Shown here in pieces: positions 795-63,400 of a stretch of 64,000 nucleotides of DNA (positions are counted from its first letter, which is position 1; every line of letters starts with the position of its first letter). The notes under the pieces are model-generated. The model saw only the letters and a program-made list of their open reading frames with translations, was not told the origin of the DNA and ran no database searches. A program made the translations under genes and the position numbers. This stretch comes from Eledone cirrhosa. Lineage: Eukaryota. The stretch is taken from positions 199,826,001 through 199,890,000 of the forward strand of contig OZ024741.1 of assembly GCA_964016885.1 (NCBI GenBank). Direction: 5' to 3'.

Positions 795-3700
795 ACACTA
801 ACCATGTTAGGGCTGCGCACAGTAGTGGGGTGGCTGGTGTGGTCATGTGCAAGAACCCCCCGACCATCATCAAGCAATCGCACAACAACAACAGGAATAT
901 GAAGGCGTCAAATCTCAGAGTTGCCACACTTAATGTTGGCACTCTAACAGGTAGTTCTGGTGAGATAGTGGAGATGCTAGAGAGAAAACATGTGGATGTG
1001 TGCTGCGTGCAAGAGGTGAGATGGAGAGGTGCCTCTGCAAGACTAATCTTAGTGATAAGCTTTTCTGGGTAGGTAATGATGATGGGTTAGGTGGGAGAGA
1101 CATTTTACTGGCTGAGAGATGGATCAATAAGACAATAGAGCTAGTTAGAGTCAGTAATAGAATAATTAAGATTAGATTAGTTGTAGGCAAGAGACTGCTC
1201 ACAATGATCTCTACCTATGTCCCCGGCAGGCCTGGGTAAAGAAGAGAAAGACTGCTTTTACGAGCAACTTTTAGAAACAGCCACAATGACAGAGGACAGA
1301 GACATCGTTATGCTAGCAGGAGACTTCAATGGTCATGTTGGACAGCTCCAGGATGGATACACTGGGGTACATGATGGGCACGGTTATGGCTCAAGAAACG
1401 AAGAAGGAGTGAGGCTTCTTGAATTTTGTGCTGCACTAACCATTTGCAACACCAACTTCCAGAAACCTGCCAACCACCTAATAACCTACAAATCAGGCGA
1501 GCACATAAACCAGATTGACTTCTTGCTAGTTAGGTAGCGAGACAGACAGATGGTATCAAATACTAAGGCATACCCCAGAGAAGAACGTACACTACAGCAT
1601 AGGTTAGTCGTTAGTGACATCTCAATAAGCAAGAGACAAAATGAGACATACAGGAAGGTGTGGAAAAGGAAGGTCTGGAAGCTAAAGGACCTTTCACTAT
1701 AATATAAATTTAGGAAAGATGTGTATGACGAGAAAGAAGACGATTTAGAATCATATGACATACATGATAACTGGAATTTCTTATGACAACTTACTGCAGG
1801 CTACTGAAGGAACTTGTGGCTGGAGCAGAGCTCTGACCAGACAGAGAGTGACCTGGTGGTGGACCAGCACGGTAGATAGGGCCATTAGAGACAAAATGTC
1901 CTGCGACGAGAAGATCAGAGACATGTGGTGTTCCGCATTGCAAGGCAGTGTGTTAGTGTAAATCAGGATATTGTTGGAGATAAATGTGACCGAAATGAAG
2001 CTGGTGTACTTAGTGTCACTAATGATCAGAAAAAGGAGGCCTGGAAATGTCATTACCAGAGACTGATGAATGTGGAGAACGAATGGGAGAGAGAGAAACT
2101 ACCCCCATTAGACCTGACAGAGGGACCAGCTATTGAAATTGACGAATATAGGATCCAAGAGGTAATTAAGGAAATGGAAAATGGTAAGGACACTGAACAG
2201 TTGGGGATAGTTGCTGAGATGCTGAAGGCGTCAGAAGTAGGTACTAAACTGGTTGCATGCATCGTCAATCAAACAATATATGGCAGAGTCACACCCAAAG
2301 ACTGGTGCAGCAGTATTCTCATAAACTGCTACAAAGGTAAAGGGGATACTCTGGAGAGGAGCAGTTATAGAGGCATAAAACTGATGGATCAAGTTATGAA
2401 AGTGGCAGAAAGAATATTTGCACAACTAATTAGAGAAAGGGTCAAACTAGATGAGATGCAGTTTGGTTTTGTGCCTGGCAAAAGTACAACAGATGTCATC
2501 TTAGTGAGATAACTACAAGAGAGGTTCTTAGAGAAGAATAAGCCACTATACTTAGCTTTTGTTGACCTAGAGGCCTTTGATAGGGTACCCCAATCTGTCA
2601 TCTGGTGGTCCCTAAGGAAGCTGGGTGTTGAGGAATGGCTTGTGAGGACGATGCAAGCTATGTACACATGTGCTGTCAGTAAAGTGAGTGTAGGCATGGA
2701 GTTTAGTGAGGAATTCCAGATACAAGTAGGAGTACATCAGGGTCAGGCCTCAGCCCGTTCTTATTCATTATAGTCCTCCAAGCCATAACAGAGGAGTTTA
2801 AGACTGGCTGTCCATGGGAACTGCTCTATACTGGCGATCTGGTACTTATAGCAGAATCAGTAGAGGAGCTAGAGAATAAATTCTGGCTATGGAAACAGCA
2901 GTTGGAATCAAGAGGACTGAGTGAACCTAGCTAAGACATAAGTTGATGAGTAGAAAAGAGGACAAAACTCTGATTCCATCAGGGAAATGGCCATGTTTGA
3001 TATGTAGAAAAGGAGCTGGCATAAATTCTATAAAATGTACACAATGCAGATCTTGGGTACACAAGAGATGTAGTGGGATAGCAGGCAAAATAACAGGTAG
3101 GGAAAACTATGTATGCAGTAGATGTACAGGGAAATTTGACAGTAGAAGTCGCATTGATAGACACATTTTTCAAATGCAGGTAGGTTCTATAGAAGTGGTT
3201 GATAGTTTCCAGTACCTAGGTGATCAGATTAGCTTTGGAGAGGGATGTTCCGAGTCCATAGTATCTAAAATAATGACGGGTTGGAAGAAGTTTAGGGAGC
3301 TGCTTCCTCTGTTGACAAAGAAGGGTTTCTCCCTGCATACGAAAGGCCAGTTATATGATGCCTGTGTGAGATGCGCGATGCTGCATGGTAGTGAGACATG
3401 GACAGCAACTGCAGAGGATATGCAACGGCTGGAGAGAAATGAAGCAAGCATGTTCCGTTGGATGTGCAATGTCAATGTGCGTGAACGACCGAGCATAGAC
3501 GAGTTGAGAAAGAAACTGGGTATAAGAGGGATAAGTTATGGTGTGCAGGAGAGAAGACTAAGATGGTATGGACATGTGATGCACATGGAGGATGACCGCT
3601 AGGTAAAGAAGTGGCAAGAAATCCCAGTAGAAGGAAGACACAGTAGAAGAAGACCGCAAAAGACATGGGTGGAGGTGGTGAGAGCGGACCTCACATCGCT

Positions 3701-9167: not shown

Positions 9168-9301
9168 GAGGTTATATTTAATTTGTTGGGATTCAACAAG
9201 CTTAAACATTTTTTTTATAACTGATATAAAGCACTCAACAGTTTAGTCGAGTAAATATACAATATATTAACAATTGGAAACTATATTTATAAAACCATAT
9301 T

Positions 9302-9367
9302 TATTCTATTATACATATTTCAAGGGACACCAAGGCAAATTATGGTGTGCTTTCATCAGATAAAATA
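9302..9367 (-). ncRNA. Type I hammerhead ribozyme motif, sense to the CPQ pre-mRNA
   Basis: Minus strand: tattttat CTGATGA aagcacacca-taatttgcct-tggtgtccctt GAAA tatgta TA atagaata. 8-bp stem I (one G.U), bulged stem II, very short stem III, intact core. Confidence 0.75.
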
Positions 9368-9549
9368 TAATACAGATTAGTTTTATAAATAAATATTGAC
9401 ATACCCTGAAAAAAAGACAACCTTAATGGTTGGAGCTTCCTGGATAGTATATATATATATATATGTATGTGTATATATATATATATGAGTGTGTGTGAGT
9501 CCCAGACTCAATCAGGATTAACCAGAGTAAGTAAGGTACTCAATACATT

Positions 9550-10300: not shown

Positions 10301-10590
10301 ACATTGTAGGTTGCTTTAACCCATCTTATTATTAAAAAAACTTCTTGCCAATAAACATTAACCCTTTGTGCGCCATTCATCTAACTGTAGACCAACAAAT
10401 ACCAAGTAAATGGAGCGTTGACAAGAACGATGGCAAATGAATCTTCGAGGTAAGCAGTTTCCTCCCGAGCTGTTAGTTCACGCAGGATTCTCTGCTACAC
10501 CTTTTCGTAATAATACCGAACAACGTACTGCTGGTCACTCCTTCCTCCAAAAGCCGTACAAAGCATCTCTCTCTGTCTATATATATATAT

Positions 10591-11335
10591 AGTTATTTTT
10601 CCTAAATCTTTCGTTAACTACTTTTCCCATCTTGACGTTATAGTCGCATATATGTTATAGAATGCCGTTAGCTTCTTGCTAAAACAATCTCTATACCTCT
10701 CATTTATATTTATACTCGGATTCTTTTCCTAGAGTGCTTAAACTATCTGTGACTAATCCCGGTTTTTTTCATAAAAACTGTGATAATTATTGCTATTTTG
10801 CTGAACTCCTTTGTAGAGTTTTTTTCAGAATGTATTTGACTGCTATTTCTTGTAAATAAACATTCACTTCCATCCTGACGTCACTAGCCCCGTTTTTTCC
10901 TCATGTGCTTTTTCATAAATACACATGAAGGCGAACTAACCAGTTTTAGAACTCCCTTTTTCGGATTATATTACTGTGAGAGCCCTGGTTTCTGTTGAGC
11001 TCTGCTGATGAATGAAATCCAACCGTGACCATCTCCACTGAAAGTTTTCATGAAATAGTCTTTTAAGACTATACAGAGCATTTGATGTTATTCCAAATTG
11101 AAGGATAAGTGTTTCAAACTTTATTTTATCATGAGTTAGGTCTATAGATTTTTCCCTGGATTTTACTAAATTCTGTGGATGAATTTATATCCTGATTCTC
11201 TTTTGAGATGAGTTTGAGTTATTTTTCCTAAATCTTTCGTTAACTACTTTTCCCATCTTGACGTTATAGTCGCATATATGTTATAGAATGCCGTTAGCTT
11301 CTTGCTAAAACAATCTCTACACCTCTCATTTATAT
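10591..11335 (+). mobile_element. Retrozyme-like non-coding element: 626-nt unit plus 119-bp terminal direct repeat, inserted in (TA)n
   Basis: 10591-10709 equals 11217-11335 with one mismatch. No ORF of 60 aa or more in the track. Internal hammerhead; TA runs on both sides. Confidence 0.8.
10999..11079 (+). ncRNA. Type I hammerhead ribozyme (intact core)
   Basis: gctctg CTGATGA atgaaa-[28 nt]-tttcat GAAA tagtct-ttta-agacta TA cagagc. Three perfect 6-bp stems; predicted cleavage after A11073. Confidence 0.9.
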
Positions 11336-12391
11336 ATATATATATATATTTGTTATAAGAATATATTAAAGTTTAAGCAAAGAATCGCTGCTTTCAACAT
11401 TAACGGGATCTTCTGAAACTAAAAAATTCAATCTGTGACCGCAGAAGTAAATATTTCGAGAAACGTTGCAATCGAAGGAAAACAGGAAGACAATATTTTG
11501 GTTCGTGAAGACGTTCCCTAGTAATGAACGGAAAAAAAAGCGAGGATAATACGTCGTTATGTGGACTGAGAAGAACAATTTCATGCAAAGACAAGACCAA
11601 GTTTATGGTATAAATGGAGTCGTTAGACTAATATTCTATTTAAAATAACCGAATGATTTCCAGCCCCGGAGTTTAAGAATGATGTAAATAAAATTGAAAA
11701 CGAAAATGACAGAGGTTATTAAAATAGTAAAAGTAAATAGTGAAGATTTAGGCCAGTACATACGTATGGCCCGACGGACATACACATACAAATACATACA
11801 CACACACAAACACACACACAGACACACACACACACACACACACACGTGTGTGTGTGTGTAAACCTTATGCATTTCTACAGTATTTTCACCAAACTTAAGA
11901 CATAGGTTACATATGTACTCCGGATGGTCATGGGCACTTTCATTTTTCCAGATATTGATAATAGCCCCCCCCCCCCCCCCCCCCCGGCAGATAACCCCTT
12001 TAACCACTTTAACCACTTCTTTGGAGTCGACTGAAGCACTGCAGTGCATTGCAACAAAACGTCATAACTTCTAGAGTTCGCAACCGATTTTCACAAAACC
12101 TGACATATGGGCTACATTTGTTCTATAGATGAATGTGAACTCTCAGAATTGGCACATATTGAGTAGGGGACCCTTGGGGGCAGGAACCCCCTTTTGGAAA
12201 AAGCCGATGATTTTGTAAAAGTATAGTTTTCGAAGCAGCACTGAAGTATTGACATAAATGGTATACACAACTGCTATTTAATACCCGAACAACGCCGGGT
12301 ACCTCTGCTAGTATATATATATATATATATACATGATGTCTCACCCTTGCAAGCAGCGAAAAGCGAACGTAAAATGATGATGATGATGATG

Positions 12392-13785
12392 GACTCTCCC
12401 GTCGATTCGACGTATGAGGGTTCAACAGTTTTTTCAGTTTATTGTTTTATGTTTATGTCTCAAATGGCACTTCAATCCAGCTGCTGATTTACACATCAAT
12501 CTGCATTTGGTACAGGTGACAGGATCTTGAATAGAGCAGGCTCGAATGCCTGACTGGACTCTGGTGTCAGATCTTATCTCACAGAGATGGGCTAAACGAA
12601 ATTTCACAAAGTTCTTCATACCTTCGTGGCAGACGGTCCTCCATCTTTTACGGTTGGCGGCATATAGCTTCAAACGAAGAAGGAGGTATGCTGACAGACT
12701 TAAGATTGTACTTCAGTTTGTCCTTATATTGGAGTAGTGGTCTACCCATACTATACACTCCATCCTGGAGCTGACTGTACCACAGTACCTTAGACACCCG
12801 TAGGACATGACCATCCCATCTGAGTTGGGATTGCACCAGAAATGACTTAATCTCACCAATGTTGCACCTTGTGACAGTTTTGCATTGGAAACTCTGTCAG
12901 AAAGTGCATATCCACAAACAGAACAAAGACGGTGTGTTTGTGGAATACATCAAGCTTATGTATGTGAGTGCGGTAAAGTGTCCATGACTCTGAGCCATAT
13001 AAGAGTGTTGTCAGTATCACTGGGATATACCTTTGGCACTCCATATGCAGTGATGTAGTTTGCCAAAAGCATCAGCTGCCTTGGAGATGCAATTAACAAT
13101 CTCATCATCCAGGGATGCAGAGTGATTCACCTTGCTGTCAAAGTAAGTAAAGGAGCTCACATATTTCAGATCCTTGCCATCAATAGTGATGGGTGCAAGA
13201 GGATGCCCTTGATCTGGCCACATCTGTTTAACACCTCCTGCATACCTGGGGATGGCTTTGTTTGATGTACCACCTCAGTCTTCTTGATGCTGATTATTAG
13301 ACCAAAAGCTTTACAGGCAAGCGAAAAGCAGTTCATCAATTCTTGTGCCTCTTTGAGGGATGTTGCAATAAGTGCAGCATCATCAGCAAAGAGTAAATCG
13401 TGTGAGTATTTTAGCCAAAGCGCTGATGGTTAAATAGCCCACCTGATGTACAGAACTTAAATCTGACACCAGTGTCAAAATCGCCAAATACACGCTGGAG
13501 CATTACAGAAAAGAACAAAGCAAAGAAGACAGGAGCTATGACACAACCCTGCTTCGTACCATTTGTAACAGCAAAGGGTTCAGAGCATTCACCATCTGAC
13601 ATAATTGATGCTTCCATGCCCTCTTTGAAGGATATGATGATATTTAGCATATTATCAGGTATGCCAAGCTTTTTCAGGATTTTCCAAAAAGCTTTGCAAT
13701 TGACAGTGCCGAAGGCTTTAGTCAGGTCAACAAAAACCATAAACAGGTCTTGGTTCCTTTCACAAACCTTCTCTGTGACCTGTTG
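12392..13785 (-). mobile_element. RTE-clade (BovB-like) LINE, 5'-truncated and decayed
   Basis: FVDLTKAF, GTKQGCVIAPVFF, LLYGSESW, QLRWDGHV, C-terminal CTKCRLMCKSAAGLKCHLRHKH zinc finger. Confidence 0.88.
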
Positions 13786-14194
13786 AAGGCCATAATATCT
13801 ACCCAGCAATTCTTTCCTGAGACATTCTAACCACATGACCATAGTATCAGAGTAGTGATCTTTCAATTCAGAGAAGTAGGGACTCTCTGATCTCAGAGCT
13901 ACACACTCTATCAAGTAATGTTACTCCAAAGACCCTTAATTCTTTTTAAGGAAAACGTTGCTGTTATATTAAAAAATCTTTTAAAAACGGTAAAATATAC
14001 TATTAATCCTATTTAAATTATCATACATTATAGTTCGATAAATAGATAAAAATTAGAGAGTGAATTAATAAAACAATTAATTTACAGTGACATAAATATG
14101 TAAATGTTTTTAAAAAAATACAGCATAAGTTTTTATAAACACATGAGTTCTGTTTGATGTTGGTTTTAATTAATCTGGACTGAAGGCAATTATT

Positions 14195-31319: not shown

Positions 31320-33622
31320 TCAGCCGAAATCGACTCAACAATTGATCTCCACGTGGCTCTGTTGTTCATTGCTGTTGCTGGATTTCAATATCAGAATCTC
31401 TGGAGATGACATGGGATAGGAGAGCTTGTGCCCCGTTATTAGTGACTGCTTGTGGTTTCCAAAGCACTAATGGGGACACAGCCTCATAAGTGGCACGATG
31501 GCAGTGGTCAGCAAATATTACTCTCCTTTTATGTACAACAACAAATATGCGTGGGAGGCCAGCATATATCTCTCTCAAAGTCAGATGTTGTCAGCTTATG
31601 TTCTGAATGCGTTGAAGCAGGCGAGTCTAAGTGCCATCAAGGTGTTTTTTGTTGTTTGGATGAAAGCGTCGATGTTTCACTTCCATATAGCAAGATTGGT
31701 TGAATTGTTACTTGGAAGAGTCTGATCTTGGCGCGGTTGGAAAGATTTGAGCACCAAACTCGATCCATCTTGTTGCAAGCTGACCATGCTTGGGCCTTTC
31801 TGGTGGCGAAATCCTTCTCAGAGTCCATGATCCAGGACCCAAGATACTTGAAATCCTCGACTTGCTTGATATCACTGCCATTGATTGCTTTGATGTTGTT
31901 GCCTGTACAATTTGATATGTACTCTGTTTTATCCTCATTGAGATGAAGGCCAACGAGGGCGGCTGCTTCCTGGAGAGATGTCAAAAGTGGTTGCGCATTT
32001 TCTAGGCAATCTGCAAGAAGTGCAATGTCATCCGCAAAGTCAAGGTCAGTGAGATGTTTAGAGGGATGCCTAGATCTCATGCAGGGTTTGATGGTTATAC
32101 CTTTGTTATTGATTTTGTCAATTGAGAGTCTCAGGGCGTAGTCTAGTGCAATGATAAAGAGGAATGGGGCAAGAGTGTCACCCTGCAGCACTCCTGCTGA
32201 GATGTCAAAGAACTCTGTTGGGTCATCAGGAGTGATGATAGTGGCACTTGTGTTGAGATACAGAGCCTTAATTGCTTCTACAAGTCTTGCTGGGATGCCA
32301 TACAAAGGTAGAATTTCAAACAGAATGTCTCTGTTTATGCTGTCAAAAGCTTTTCTAAAGTCAGAAAAAACAGAGCCATTTGTCTGTTGGAGTTTCTCAT
32401 CTCTTCCACTACTCTTCTCAAAATCTGTGCAAGTGTAGATCTACCACGCCTAAAACTGTTTTGGTTGAGGTGAAGGATTGGATCAACATACAGAATTATA
32501 CAGTTTAGGATTAGCTTGTTGTAGATCTTGGCAGCAATAGGCATATGTGATATTCCTCGGTAGTTTTGGGGGGATGAGAGGTCGCCTTTTTTGGGGACAG
32601 GAACTTCTTCTCCAACTCCTTGGTGAATTTGAACTCTTCTCATCTACAAATAGCTTCATGAAAAAGCAATCCAAGCTCTGGTCATTCACCCTAATGGTAG
32701 TAGAGCTCAATTGGATTATATCCTATTTCGGAAAAAATGGCGAAACATTGTACAAGACTCTGAAACCTATTCTGCCTTCTCCAATATGGCATCTGATCAC
32801 AGGATTATCTCTTCCAAAGTTACTCTTAGCCTTCGCGCTCCTAAGAAAGTTCCCACTGAACCGATGGAACAAATTGACTGGAGGTTAGTGTCATCAAATA
32901 AGGAGCTCTCCAGCCAGTATGCAATTAGTGTCTACAATAGGGTCTCTGAACTACCCTTTACTGATGATTGCATTGAGACTAAATACTCCAACCTAATTGC
33001 TTCAAATGAGGAAGTTGCTCTTTTCAGCTTACCCCCAAAAACCAAAAGGAAGCTCACGAAATATCCTCAGCGCGTAAACAACTGCAAAGTCTTTCTTCTC
33101 AGTATAACTCAAATCCAACTAGTTTACTGAAAAGTGAAATGACCCAATGCAAAAAAGACCTTGATGAGGCATACACAACTGCTCTTGCTGAGTATGTAGA
33201 AGGAAAAATAAACAAACTTAAGACCCTTCATATATACAAACAGCACGCAGTCGCATGGGCTTTAATCAATGAAATAACTGGTAGAAAAGAAAACCCTTCC
33301 CCCATCATCAAAGGAGGCTCTCAAGAAGCTTGGAAAAAGAGCTGGACTGACCACTTCAAGGGTCTACTGGGAGAACCCTCCCCTGTAGAAGGCGATCGCC
33401 CAAAGTCTATGGTATCACCTGAACTCGACATCTCCACTGGACTTTTCACCTTGAGTTTGATCAACCAGGTGATCAAAACACTTGAAAACAAAAAATCACC
33501 CAGTCTCAACAACATACCCAGTATAATTTGGAAAGACCCAAACCTTACTTCAGTTCTATTATCAATCTGCAACGACACCTTAAGCAACAAATTTCCCCCA
33601 ACAAGTTGGCTAAAAGCAGGCA
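31320..33622. mobile_element. RTE-superfamily LINE with inverted 5' segment (RT on minus 31320-32605; endonuclease end and linker on plus 32610-33622)
   Basis: Minus: PVPKKGDLS..NYRGIS, GVLQGDTLAPFLF, LDFADDIALL, FKYLGSW, LLYGSET. Plus: LDYILFRKKWRN, SDHRII, ...KSPSLNNIP...SWLKAG. Confidence 0.88.
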
Positions 33623-33841: not shown

Positions 33842-34706
33842 CATATATATTTCAATAAGCTATTGTGTGTAGTTGATGAGTCAAGAGCAGATTACTCTTA
33901 CACATGACCTCTTAAGTGCAGGGCCCAATAAGGAGCAGTTGGCCCATCTGGGTTAAGTTCAGCCCTTTATGTATGTGTGTTGGAACTCTATTGATTCTGA
34001 CAATGATTGTTCCAGTTGTTTGATCAATGCTAACAGCCTACTCATAAAATTAACATGCAAATAGTTGAACATTCCACAGATTCAACATGATACAATGTGT
34101 GACAAAGTCTTAATTAATTAATTAGTTTATTTATTTTATTTTAATCTATTTCTTATATAATAAATTTTTGGTATCGGTTATAATATTCACAGTTGTTGCA
34201 GACCTGTGGACAATGTGGGGTTGGGAGGAGATGGATGTTGCTACTATTATAGCAGCTGCTCTCTACTACAGCTACTGATAGAGAGGGGAGGGAGAAGGGC
34301 TACCAGCCATTTTCATTACTTCCTAAACTGACCAACACTTGAGTCAAAATTCTTAGTGTCATACAGGGGCTGGCTGTTGAAGAAACAACACCACACATTC
34401 GGCCGGCCCCTGTATAATGAAAAGAAATGTTTTTTCAGGGAAATTATTGGATTTTTCCAAATTTAAAGGTTTTTTAGGAACTTTCAATGTTTATTTTAGG
34501 TTTCGCTGTCTGAAGAGCTAAGGCTATCATAACCAATAATCCTCAGTGAAATATGTATAGCAGAGTTATGAATAATTTTTTGGTATCGGTTATAATATTC
34601 ACACTTGTGAATATTATAACCGATAAACAACTGAATATGGCCTCCGGTCTTTTATTAATATATATATATATATGTATATAAATAGGGAGACACAAAGCAA
34701 GCTTTG

Positions 34707-43484: not shown

Positions 43485-45319
43485 AGTCAGGAACTAGCTG
43501 CTGAAATGGCAAGAGCTCAGCCATCGGGATCGCCACTCTTTATAAAAGGTGGCAGATAACATCCGACAGTTGTTGAGCAAAAGTATGAAGTCCTGGGAAA
43601 CAGAGTTAACATCAGGTGGAGAATCCCTGGGAGGCGTGAAGATCAAGAGAGGTATCTTCCAGGGAGATAGTTTGTCTCCTCTGTTGTTTGTCCTTGCCCT
43701 GATACGCCTGACCGTTATATTGCAAAAAGTGAGAGTAGGATACAAGTTGGGAAAAGGAGAGCTTGCCATCAACCACCTCCTCTTCATGGACGATCTTAAA
43801 CTCTTTGGGAAGAATGAGAAGGAGTTGGATGTACTTGTTAACACTGTCCGTATTTTCAGCAATGATATATGTATGGAATTTGGTATTAATAAGTGTGGAG
43901 TCTTAGTGATGAAGCGGGGTAAATTGAGCAGAAGTAACGGAATCCAGGTACCAACAGGTGAGATGATAAAGGAAATTGACACTGGAGAGGGATACAAATA
44001 TTTAGGTGTTCTGGAGGTAGATGACATCAAGAACAAAAAAATGAAGGAATTGATAAGATCTGAGTACATAAGGAGAGTAAGGAGCGTATTAAAATCACAT
44101 CTAAATAGTAGGAATGTCATAAGTGCAGTGAATTCCAGAGCTGTGTCTATTATTAGGTACAGTGCGGGAATTCTGAAATGGAATGTTGCTGAACAAAAAA
44201 AAATGGATAGGAAGACTAGGAAGCTATTGACTATCTACAACATGTTCCACAAGAGGAGTGATGCCGATAGACTCTACTTAAAGAGATCTGAAGGTGGAAG
44301 AGGTCTTATCAGCATAGAGGACTGTGGTCAGATGGAGAAAAACAACCTGCACAAATATATGACTGACAGTAGGGAGCCAATGCTCAAAATTGTACTGAAG
44401 GAGAAGACAATAGACCAGGGGATGTCCAAGGAGGAAATAACAACAAGGAGGAAGAGCAACCTTCATGAAAAATCCCTTCATAGTACCTTCTTTAAGAAAA
44501 CTGAATTTAGAGATCCACAGACATGGAACTGGTTAAAAAGAGGAGACCTTAAAAAAGCTACAGAAGGAATGTTAATGGCTGCGCAAGAGCAAGCCCTCAA
44601 AACGAAGTGGCTGAAACACCATATTGACAAGGAGGAGGCTAGCTCACTGTGTAGGATCTGTGGAGAGAGAGAGGAGACTGTGTTTACATTGTATCCGAGT
44701 GTAAACACCTATCCCAGACTCACTATAAAGGCTGGAGACATGATGTGATGGGCAGGGTGATCCACTGGCATCTATGCAAAGTAAACAATTTACCACATTC
44801 TGAGAAGTGGTATGAGCATAAGCCAGAGTCGGTGATAGAAAACGATCAGGTGAAGGTGCTATGGGATTTTAGGATACAGACGGACAAGAAATTAGAACAC
44901 AATAGGCCTGACCTGGTGGTTTTGGACAAGGAAAAAATATTGTGCCTGATTGTAGATGTAGCCTGCCCATTTGACACAAGAGTGCAAGAAAAGGAGAGGG
45001 AGAAAATTAACCGATACCAGGACTTAAAGTGGGAGTTAAAAAGGATTTGGAACTGCCATGAAATCAAGGTTATCCCGATTGTCATAGGCGTACTAGGTAC
45101 TATCTCAAAGAGTTTCCAAGGATGGTTAAAGAAGATTAGTCCAGCCCCGCTTTTTGGAACACTTCAAAAGGCATGCTTGCTGAGAACACCAAGAACCCTC
45201 CGATACGTTCTGAATATCTGAGGCTGCAGGTAGCGGCTTGATATTCATTTCAACAAACTTTCCAGTTAAAAAACATCAATGACTGAGCCTCAAAGAACAA
45301 TAATAATAATAATAATAAT
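43485..45319 (+). mobile_element. R4/Dong-like non-LTR retrotransposon (RT plus restriction-like endonuclease), 5'-truncated
   Basis: GIFQGDSLSPLLF, HLLFMDDLKL, YKYLG, GGRGL, CRICG..EETV, WDFRIQTD, NRPDLVV, DVACPFD; (TAA)n tail; few lesions. Confidence 0.92.
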
Positions 45320-60330: not shown

Positions 60331-60479
60331 ATACTGCCCTCCTAGCCCTTACCAGCCCCAACAAACTCTGCCATTACTACTACTGTCCTTCTAGCCCTGT
60401 ACTAAATAATAATTCCCTACTGATATCTATGGATGAGCTGAGGATAAATGGAACAACACCGAATTAATAAATGAATATG

Positions 60480-63400
60480 AATCCGCAAGCTACCAAACAC
60501 CCATGCAAAGTTTTAATCCAGAGATAGGTTGCATACACGTCCCCCGCAAAAATTCCCCCCATCCCACGAGTTATGGCAAATGTCCAAAACTCCGAGTTGG
60601 AACCATCAATGTAAGCACAATGAAAGGAAGAGCAGGAGAAATTGTAGAGATGCTAGAGCGAAAGGAAATTGATGTATGCTGTGTGCAAGAGACTAGATGG
60701 AAAGGAGAGTCTGCTAGAGTCCTTGTAGGAAAAAGTCGGTGCTACAAATTTTTCTGGGTGGGAAATGACAACGGGGTGGGAGGGGTAGGTATACTATTAG
60801 CTGACAAGTGGGTTGATAAGGTAATCTCAGTGAACAGGGTGAATGCAAGAATCATCAAACTCAGACTAGTCCTGAATAAAACAATTGCCACAATAGTATC
60901 AGCTTTCGCACCCCAATCGGGGTTGCCAGACGAACTTAAGGATAGATTTTTACGAGTCCCTAATGCACACTACTGCCCTAACAAGCGACAATGACTTCCG
61001 CATCATTGCAGGAGATTTCAATGGACAAGTTGGTAAACACCGTGACAGCTTCTATAGAGACCATGAAGGCCACGGGTTTGGCATAAGAAATGAAGACAGC
61101 TTCAGGCTTCTGGAATTCTGCGATGCCAATGACATGTCGATATGTAACACAAACTTAAAAAACCCAACATACCTCCCAACATAACTTAGTTGTCAGCGAC
61201 CTCGCTGTCAAAACTAGACGAACTTGGAAACAGAAGGCAACCTGGAGAAGAAAGATCTGGAAGCTGAAAGACCCCTCAGTCAGAAGCAGGTTTAAAGATA
61301 TTCTACTCGACACCTATGACAGTAAAGAAGATAGAGACATTCAACGTAGAAGAGCACTGGGAGTTCCTAAAAAATAACTTACTAAAGGCGACGGACGAGA
61401 TCTGTGGTTGGAGCAAGACCACAGGCAGGAGGAGAGTGACTTGGTGGTGGAACAATAAGGTAGATGAGGCAGTTAAGGCTAAGAGACAGGCATGGAAAGA
61501 ATGGAAGAATGGAGGTAACAGGGTACATTGCATAGAGACCAGGAGGGAAGCTAGGCGACAAGTATACTTAGCTAGAAGGGAAGCAGAGGATAGAAAATTT
61601 AAGCATGTTTTGCATAGTGAGGACCAAAAACAGGTGTTCAAGATTGCGAGGCAGCGTGTCAGAGAGAATTGTGATGTCATTGGAGACAAGTGTATCCGGA
61701 ATGATAATGGTGAGCTTGCCCTCACAAGTGCCGAGAAGAAAGATACGTGGAAGAGGCATTATGAAAGATTACTAAACGAGGAGAATCATCATCATCATTT
61801 TACGTCCGCTTTTCCCTGCTTGCAAGGGTTGGACGGGTCCTATTCAGCACAGCATCTCTCCACAGAGAATGCATGGGAAAAAGAAACCCTACCCAAAGCG
61901 GACACTATAGAGGGGCCAGCAGTAGAAGTCAGCAGCAGCTTAGTAAGTAAGGCAATCAAAGATATGAAGACAGGGAAGGCAACCAGTCCATCAGGTATAG
62001 CTGCCGAGATGCTGAAGGCATCTGGGTCGGTAGGTCACACCTTAACCACACGAATTGTTAACCAGGTAATACTAGAGGGTATCATACCAAAGGATTGGTG
62101 CAGCAGCATCATTATCAACTGCTACAAAGGTAGAGGTGATGCAGTAGATAGAGGAAACTATAGAGGTATAAAGCTGATGGACCAGGTCATGAAAGTAACG
62201 GAAAGAGTTATAGCACAGTTGATTAGGGACCGGGTGAAACTAGATGAGATGCAATTTGGGTTTGTACCAGGAAAAGGCACCACTGATGCCCTCTTCCTTG
62301 TGCGGCAGTTAAAGGAAAAGTACCTAGCTAAAAGTAATCCGCTCTAACAGGCATTCGTCGATCTGGAAAAAGCCTTCGACAGAGTTCCCCGTGCTATAAT
62401 CTGGTGGGCTCTTAGAAAATTAGGAGTAGATGAATGGCTTGTGAAAGCTGTACAAGCCATGTATAGAGGAGCAGTAAGCAAAGTTAGAGTTAGCAAGGAC
62501 TATAGCGAGGAATTTAGCATACAGGTCAGTGTCCACCAGCGCTCTGTTCTTAGCCCTCTCCTGTTCATTATAGTTATGCAGGCAATAACGGAGGAGTTTA
62601 AGACCGGATGCCCATGGGAATTCCTGTATGCGGATGATCTCGCACTTATAGCTGAATCCATGGTGGAAATAGAGAAGAAATTCCAAACTTGGAAGCAGGG
62701 ACTAGAAAGAAGGGGCCTCAGAGTCAACCTGACAAAGACTAAGGTTCTTGTAAGTGGATGAGAAAACAGAACCCAGATTCCCCCAGGGAAATGGCCTTGC
62801 TCAGTATGTAGGAAAGGTGTAGGTAGGAACTCCATTCTCTGCCCCAAATGCAAACAGTGGGTACACAAGAGATGTAGTGGGATCTCAGGAAGTTTAACTA
62901 AGAATGTAGGCTTCATATGTAGCAGCTGTGCTGGGACAGCGACCACAGGAAACAAACACCACCAAACTCGGGGAGGGCTCTGTAGAAACAGTAAACAGCT
63001 TCTGCTACCTAGGTGACTGAATTAGCAGCGGAGGTGGGTGTTTGGAAAGTACAATAACGGGATGGAAGAAGTTCAGGGAGCTACTGCCACTGCTAGCTGC
63101 AAAAGGCTTTTCCCTCAAAATGAAAGGCAGACTGTATGATGCGTGTATACGAACAGCAATGTTACATGGAAGTGAAACATGGGCGCTGTCTGTAGAAGAA
63201 TTGCGCAGATTAGAAAGAAACGAAGCTTGTATGCTCCGATGGATGTGTAATAGTAATATACGCGAACAGCAAAGCATAAACGAATTGAGAGAGAGACTGA
63301 GCATAAGAGGAATCAAATGCTGTGTAGAGGAGAGGTGGTTACGTTGGTATGGACATGTGATGCGTATGAAGGATGATAGCTGCATAAAAAGGTGCAGAGG

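What the first reader, a model, noticed from the sequence alone, without database searches (positions are those of the whole stretch)
10591..11335. Terminally redundant 626-nt non-coding unit with an intact hammerhead: candidate retrozyme (circular-RNA retroelement)
Seen: the first 119 bp recur exactly 626 bp later with one mismatch (T10694/C11320). The unit encodes no listed ORF, sits between (TA)n runs, and holds a textbook type I hammerhead (10999-11079). Known: non-autonomous retrozymes of plants and metazoans are non-coding hammerhead repeats that yield circular RNAs and are thought to be copied by retrotransposon (e.g. Penelope) RTs; reported metazoan monomers are mostly a few hundred nt. 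Inference: about 1.2 copies of a permuted unit is what RT running just over one lap of a 626-nt circle would leave. The near-identical repeats suggest a young insertion and a possibly large, undescribed cephalopod family.
Basis: partly seen in the sequence, partly recalled or inferred. Interest (0 to 1): 0.9.

Follow-up and report, generated by a model that had tools for sequence, protein, structure and literature searches.

The report
Hammerhead retrozyme family targeting TA microsatellites
This 745-base insert is one of over 800 recent copies of a non-coding ~628-base repeat with a hammerhead ribozyme motif; the copies share one end running into TA microsatellites and start at variable points, the pattern expected if a Penelope-type reverse transcriptase copied them, likely by running round an RNA circle that has not yet been observed.

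Summary
In detail: a 119-bp terminal repeat 626 bp apart with one mismatch, and a well-formed type I hammerhead predicted to cut at 11073/11074.

The unit belongs to a young, dispersed, non-coding family. There are 826 exact copies of its 3' end and arrays of up to about 8 laps, plus an 81%-identical sister family with the same end.

Copies are not randomly permuted. The 3' end is fixed at a short TATAT patch running into (TA)n (88 of 94 arrays not chosen by that end), and only the 5' ends vary. Coding Neptune-like Penelope elements in this genome follow the same junction rule, so their enzyme is the likely driver. No partner was identified by homology.

Only 5 of 929 copies begin at the ribozyme cut site, which is background level. 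The template was therefore either a re-ligated circle (favoured) or an uncleaved linear multimer. Long arrays also grew by local duplication. No RNA data were available, and the cephalopod host is unverified.

Verdict: a new member of the known animal non-LTR retrozymes, with an unusually clear insertion footprint that makes the circle-versus-linear question testable.

The parts
10591..11335 (+). Whole insertion: 1.19 laps of the retrozyme unit (5'-truncated second lap plus one full lap)
10578..10591 (.). Upstream (TA)n run; variable 5' junction (target microsatellite)
   Evidence: 89 of 126 arrays have a TA-like 5' flank
10591..10709 (+). First copy of the 119-nt redundancy (start of a second lap)
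10705..10709 (+). Internal TATAT patch, read through here; inferred priming site, predicted single-stranded between two conserved hairpins
   Evidence: 258 exact read-through junctions; unpaired probability 0.75-0.99
10999..11079 (+). Type I hammerhead ribozyme motif with a long conserved loop II; predicted cut 11073/11074
   Evidence: 75 of 81 positions kept in the sister family versus 436 of 564 elsewhere
11110..11225 (+). Long imperfect hairpin predicted in both subfamilies (approximate limits)
11217..11335 (+). Second copy of the redundancy, ending at the family's fixed 3' end
   Evidence: 826 exact genome-wide matches to this end plus (TA)n
11331..11349 (.). Downstream (TA)n run overlapping the TATAT patch (target DNA, inferred primer)
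   Evidence: 116 of 126 arrays have a TA 3' flank

Best explanation
The insert is a 5'-truncated copy of a young, non-coding hammerhead retrozyme family with a fixed 3' end in TA microsatellites, likely copied by the enzyme of a Penelope-like element from an RNA that is likely circular. SHOWN: family size, lack of coding capacity, fixed 3' end, variable 5' ends, (TA)n targets, read-through of the predicted cut site, one haplotype per array, and the same junction rule in coding Penelope-like elements of this genome. INFERRED cycle: (1) an array with two or more hammerheads is transcribed; (2) the hammerheads would cut out a ~628-nt monomer, which a host ligase would close; (3) a Neptune-type GIY-YIG endonuclease would nick a (TA)n tract; (4) the freed 3' end would pair with the exposed UAUAU patch 260 nt downstream of the cut site and prime reverse transcription internally; (5) RT would run round the circle and fall off at about 0.2% per nucleotide, so most copies are under one lap, about a quarter exceed it, and this copy stopped at 1.19 laps; (6) some long arrays later grew by local unequal exchange.
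For: Family: 2060 candidates, 101 matches at 95-100% in the 39 loci scored; 826 exact 3' ends and 258 read-through junctions. Fixed end in 88 of 94 arrays not chosen by that end. In an unbiased 30 of the 826, lengths ran from 27 to >1525 nt and 8 of 30 exceeded one lap. Only 5 of 929 cut-site contexts (0.5%) begin with (TA)n there against about 1% expected from the background fall-off rate, although the ribozyme is the best-conserved segment between subfamilies (75/81 versus 436/564, p 0.0005 for L183; p 0.02 for L103). Variants shared between arrays were in all covering laps in 131 cases, and 10 of 56 arrays of 1-2 laps carry a private substitution in both laps (two of the ten are about two full laps and could be local duplications). 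Penelope-like families with RT plus GIY-YIG end in (TA)n and show a short TA patch at the read-through into their ORF (D in L092, L099; C in L097, L103; A in L104). Family D also reads through its own hammerhead motif (0 of the first 100 of 13,706 matches start there). Inverted head-to-head copies typical of Penelope elements occur (L226, L263). One array (L226) ends at another internal TA-like patch.
Against: No RNA evidence for cleavage or a circle. In vitro, an anole Penelope-like element starts internally on unprocessed RNA, at a site not homologous to the cut DNA, and hammerhead mutants insert equally well (PMC11167929). No source-daughter pair proving excision between two hammerheads was found among 114 arrays. 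Long arrays show local-duplication patterns (L141, L143, L144, L214, L224; 40 variant patterns in some but not all laps), so multimers alone do not prove rolling. No homology to 70 Penelope loci. The low mutation rate in the ribozyme core (0.0025/site) is close to the singleton rate (0.0018) and is not independent evidence of selection. One sister-family lap (L168) has a damaged ribozyme (p 0.44). In the predicted circle, stems I and II form with only about 25% probability.
Confidence: 0.6

Rival explanations
1. Same family and same Penelope-type enzyme and target, but the template is an uncleaved linear read-through transcript of a tandem array, primed internally or at its (UA)n tail. Tandem length is maintained by local duplication and the ribozyme is slow or acts at another step.
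For: Anole element uses unprocessed RNA in vitro and no RNA reads end at its cut site. Local duplications are common in long arrays. The ribozyme fold is a minority state in the full unit. An earlier, unchecked finding describes the same footprint for a repeat without a ribozyme.
Against: Needs many separately homogenised master arrays to explain private variants in both laps of 10 of 56 short arrays. Any appreciable cleavage should pile 5' ends at the cut site, and 5 of 929 is background. It does not explain why the ribozyme is the best-conserved segment. No two arrays sharing a 5' start shared a 5' flank in the six commonest start positions.
Confidence: 0.27
2. The unit is the terminal repeat (pseudo-LTR) of a coding Penelope-like family that was not sampled, and the copies are its truncated tails.
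For: Only 70 of 10,597 GIY-YIG candidates were compared. Xenopus retrozymes often match pseudo-LTRs (24 of 57 families matched known elements, nearly all PLEs). Family A shares the TATATTTA motif at its junction.
Against: 258 exact junctions read through into the start of the next lap. No array of 126 branches into an ORF; the 2 protein hits upstream are a host element whose (TA)n tail was the target (L142) and an opposite-strand 25% hit. Laps join directly lap to lap.
Confidence: 0.08
3. A satellite or SINE-like repeat spread at the DNA level or by a LINE, with a vestigial ribozyme.
For: Some array growth is local. LINE-type RT fragments are common in the window.
Against: Hundreds of dispersed sub-unit copies with one fixed end, (TA)n targets, inverted partners and the Penelope junction rule. 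No tRNA gene in the window.
Confidence: 0.05

Closest known systems
Animal non-LTR retrozymes (Cervera & de la Pena 2020, PMC7229834; Li, Clavereau & Pollet 2026, 10.64898/2026.07.22.740005)
   Same: Non-coding, low-GC (34%) tandem repeats with one canonical type I hammerhead per unit; predicted self-paired RNA (circular fold z -4.8); co-occur with Penelope-like elements; unit size within reported ranges.
   Different: Unit about twice the coral, mussel and axolotl monomers (about 170-400 nt); about three quarters of copies are shorter than one unit; fixed 3' end on (TA)n with a priming patch, a footprint not described in the parts of those papers I read; no pseudo-LTR homology found; circles not shown.
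Neptune-type Penelope-like elements (CX2-5CxxC linker; Craig et al. 2021, PMC8557442)
   Same: 5' truncation, partial tandems, inverted 5' copies, microsatellite targets, hammerhead 140-260 nt before the 3' end.
   Different: No ORF; full-size hammerhead rather than the minimal palindromic type seen in families A and D.
Poseidon element of Anolis, PAc (Frangieh et al. 2024, PMC11167929)
   Same: Internal start of reverse transcription downstream of a hammerhead; AT-rich targets; no ends at the cut site.
   Different: PAc starts at two sites in an AC-rich loop not homologous to the target; here one main site matches the (TA)n target over 5 nt.
Plant LTR retrozymes (as described)
   Same: Non-autonomous hammerhead elements of 600-1000 nt proposed to spread via circles.
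   Different: Type III ribozyme, LTRs, PBS/PPT and 4-bp target duplications, none of which fits variable 5' ends and direct lap-to-lap joins.

Membership tests
Animal non-LTR retrozyme | Canonical type I hammerhead motif in each unit | tested here: met
   (core intact in 178 of 183 laps covering it); Rfam gave no match
Animal non-LTR retrozyme | Head-to-tail tandem units, at least two with complete ribozymes | tested here: met
   arrays of up to about 8 laps in the family; the window copy itself has one ribozyme
Animal non-LTR retrozyme | Non-coding | tested here: met
   longest ATG ORF 31 and 36 aa in the circular consensus
Animal non-LTR retrozyme | Self-cleavage of the transcript | not testable with these tools
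   needs in vitro transcription
Animal non-LTR retrozyme | Accumulates as unit-length circular RNA | not testable with these tools
   no RNA holder listed; contigs cannot tell circle from tandem
Animal non-LTR retrozyme | Co-occurrence with autonomous Penelope-like elements | tested here: met
   10,597 GIY-YIG candidates; RT plus GIY-YIG frames up to 938 aa
Animal non-LTR retrozyme | Sequence relationship to a Penelope pseudo-LTR (Li et al. 2026; found for part of the Xenopus families) | tested here: inconclusive
   profile search of 70 loci found only 3 embedded retrozyme copies; sample is small
Autonomous Penelope-like element | RT plus GIY-YIG ORF continuous with the repeat | tested here: not met
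   none of 126 arrays
Autonomous Penelope-like element | Fixed 3' end, 5' truncation, partial tandem and inverted copies, microsatellite targets (works like one) | tested here: met
Plant-type LTR retrozyme | Type III hammerhead in two LTRs with fixed ends around an internal region | tested here: not met
   type I ribozyme, variable 5' ends, direct lap joins; PBS and PPT were not searched for separately

The most novel reading that the evidence does not exclude
Penelope enzymes in this genome copy hammerhead-made RNA circles, both their own and parasitic non-coding ones, by letting a nicked (TA)n end base-pair with a short exposed UAUA patch inside the circle. Penelope pseudo-LTRs and retrozyme arrays would then both be the record of reverse transcriptase running more than one lap, and this genome holds a whole community of such circles competing for TA microsatellites.
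Probability: 0.45. Interest if true: 0.78.

Novelty: new member of a known kind. Interest (0 to 1): 0.58.

Why it matters
How animal retrozymes get back into the genome, and whether Penelope-like elements use circular templates, has been open since 2014. The circle model was proposed in PMC4209133 and PMC7229834; the one in vitro study points to unprocessed linear RNA (PMC11167929). This family gives hundreds of nearly identical, recent insertions with a defined start site, a defined target, a measurable fall-off rate and candidate long open-frame enzymes in the same genome, so circle versus line can be decided with simple RNA and in vitro assays. A target-primed enzyme that copies a non-coding circular RNA into TA repeats from an internal site would also interest retroelement-based gene insertion work.

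Tried and rejected
RNA evidence: no RNA holder listed. Four contig sets were laid (4 of the 6 listed); their type is not on record, organism A may be the source of the assembly, and contigs cannot show ends or circles, so nothing is concluded from them.

Rfam: no hammerhead match.

Partner search: blastn of the unit against 50 GIY-YIG loci and a profile of three subfamilies against 70 found only embedded copies. A 3'-end look-alike beside a Penelope ORF (L106) proved to be a sister retrozyme family, not a partner.

Source-daughter pairs: none among 114 arrays; one candidate (L224/L226) was an indel alignment artefact.

Alternating A-B laps as proof of dimer circles: rejected, because the terminal laps break the period, as unequal crossover predicts.

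Poisson test for ribozyme-core conservation (p 0.001): rejected as pseudo-replicated.

Covariation: few double-sided changes in the consensus fold; the stem II U-A to C-G change between subfamilies was read by eye.

Host taxon: homologue searches named only mollusc-symbiont assemblies, an anemone protein and a bacterial metagenome bin.

My first hammerhead scanner had an offset error and was corrected.

Literature: 7 answered full-text searches found no cephalopod retrozyme; an Octopus vulgaris repeat paper has no occurrence of 'hammerhead' or 'ribozyme' in its main text. Repbase, Dfam, subscription papers and the supplement of PMC7229834 (unreadable) could hold it.

Full report
OBSERVATION. 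Bases 10591-10709 recur at 11217-11335 with one mismatch (T10694/C11320), and identity ends after 119 nt. Both sides are (TA)n runs. At 10999-11079 lies a type I hammerhead motif with an intact core, stems of 6, 6 and 7 bp and a predicted cut at 11073/11074. It is the local minimum-energy fold, and a looser descriptor gave 0 hits in 200 shuffled windows. Rfam does not recognise it. The unit folds better than shuffles (linear z -3.7; circular consensus z -4.8 on 25 shuffles) and encodes nothing over 36 aa.

THE FAMILY. The window lies in a 3.0-Gb genome (G000). The insert drew 2060 candidates; the 39 scored gave 101 matches at 95-100% identity, many in 628-nt tandem steps. Exact patterns count 826 copies of the 3' end followed by (TA)n and 258 junctions that read on into the next lap; both are lower bounds. 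A sister family is 81% identical, with 625-634-nt laps, 449 exact matches and the same end. The ribozyme is its best-kept segment in two of three comparisons (75/81 versus 436/564 for L183, p 0.0005; L103 p 0.02; L168, which has a deletion there, p 0.44).

ANATOMY OF INSERTIONS. The copies are not permuted at both ends. Of 94 arrays not chosen by their 3' end, 88 stop at the same point, a TATAT patch that runs into (TA)n. Over all 126 arrays (four loci and the L269 fragments were dropped as duplicates, gaps or cut by my region edges), 119 end there, 116 have a TA 3' flank and 89 a TA-like 5' flank, and 5' ends fall in all ten bins of the lap. In the first 30 of the 826 matches, lengths ran from 27 to more than 1525 nt and 8 exceeded one lap, giving a fall-off near 0.2% per nucleotide. 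The window copy is simply one that stopped at 1.19 laps. Inverted head-to-head partners occur (L226, L263). The patch is predicted single-stranded (unpaired 0.75-0.99) between hairpins kept in both subfamilies. Target duplications cannot be read inside (TA)n.

THE LIKELY DRIVER. The genome has 10,597 GIY-YIG candidates (150 scored). The 70 loci I fetched fall into several Penelope-like families with RT followed by GIY-YIG; most have the cysteine linker that PMC8557442 assigns to Neptune and Nematis (clade not tested by a tree), and their 3' ends run into (TA)n. They follow the retrozyme's junction rule: the terminal copy ends in (TA)n, while the internal copy has a short TA patch and continues towards the ORF (family D in L092 and L099, C in L097 and L103, A in L104). 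Hammerhead-like motifs lie 143 nt (D) and 157 nt (A) before the end, against 260 nt in the retrozyme. No family shares sequence with the unit, and no array of 126 joins an ORF; the two upstream protein hits are a target element and an opposite-strand remnant. So the unit works like a Penelope cargo, but its partner is unidentified.

CIRCLE OR LINE. If the template were cleaved linear RNA, copies reaching the cut site should stop there. Only 5 of 929 do so with a (TA)n flank, against about 1% expected by chance; family D behaves alike (0 of the first 100 of 13,706). The template was therefore re-ligated or never cut. For the circle: the ribozyme is conserved; arrays are internally uniform (131 cases of shared variants in all covering laps); and 10 of 56 arrays of one to two laps carry a private change in both laps (on 114 arrays at 96% identity or more). 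Against certainty: no source-daughter pair was found; longer arrays show local duplication; the ribozyme fold is a 25% state in the full circle; and the anole element works in vitro on unprocessed RNA without its ribozyme. I put the full circle model at 0.6 and the linear multimer at 0.27. Copying by a Penelope-type enzyme, common to both and to the pseudo-LTR rival, is about 0.9 or more.

RELATION TO KNOWN WORK. Tandem non-coding type I hammerhead repeats are the published animal non-LTR retrozymes; circles were shown for coral, mussel and axolotl, and mobilisation by Penelope-like elements was proposed (PMC7229834: passages, section 14 and discussion; supplement unreadable). A 2026 preprint links them to pseudo-LTRs and reports units of 51-972 bp (10.64898/2026.07.22.740005: parts 1-3 of 5; supplements closed). 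The more-than-unit circle model dates from 2014 (PMC4209133: passages). Also read: PMC8557442 (passages), PMC11167929 (parts 1-2 of 4), PMC7761336 (passages), PMC13282606 (passages). Seven searches returned no cephalopod retrozyme, and I saw no account of a fixed microsatellite-primed end for retrozymes in the parts I read; repeat databases were not available.

VERDICT. A real, young, multi-copy element and a new member of a known kind. Every sequence-level feature of a non-LTR retrozyme that I could test is met except pseudo-LTR homology, which is inconclusive; cleavage and circular RNA are untested. Its value is the clean insertion footprint, which ties retrozyme spread to Penelope-type priming on (TA)n and sets up a direct test of a decade-old question. 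Interest 0.58.

Noticed in passing
G000; L161-L190, L103: Sister retrozyme family at 81% identity (laps 625-634 nt, 449 exact 3'-region matches) with the same fixed end; 7 of 28 copies start at one internal TA-like patch. An intermediate 86% lineage lies in L103.
   Followed up: yes
L092, L093, L096, L099 (Penelope family D): Hammerhead-like motif with UUGAAAA in place of CUGANGA (a possible U3-A8 variant, read by eye) and a palindromic stem III, 143 nt before the 3' end; 13,706 pattern matches, many in head-to-head pairs.
   Followed up: partly
window 9271-9380 (- strand) and 34496-34580 (+ strand); L110, L118, L119, L121, L127: Several other short hammerhead-bearing elements that end in (TA)n; apparently further Penelope tails or retrozyme families.
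   Followed up: no
L101:7818-9901: Tandem of about 490-510 nt units, each with a minimal hammerhead-like motif and separated by (TA)n runs, downstream of a Penelope ORF.
   Followed up: no
L235, L148, L157 5' junctions: Short repeated pieces of the element at the 5' junction (in L235 and L148 its 3' end, in L235 about 9 nt several times between (TA)n runs), like repeated abortive priming.
   Followed up: no
window 11351-11450: Very abundant repeat (about 150 times the unit's depth in run X1) sharing the same (TA)n run; also seen beside other copies.
   Followed up: no
L009, L010 flanks: The 5' and 3' flanks are inverted repeats of each other (about 20-28 nt) around the (TA)n target.
   Followed up: no
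window 2931-3602, 13411-13920, 31637-32440, 43546-44748, 60437-62761: PHD-finger, endonuclease and RT fragments, probably LINE remnants.
   Followed up: partly
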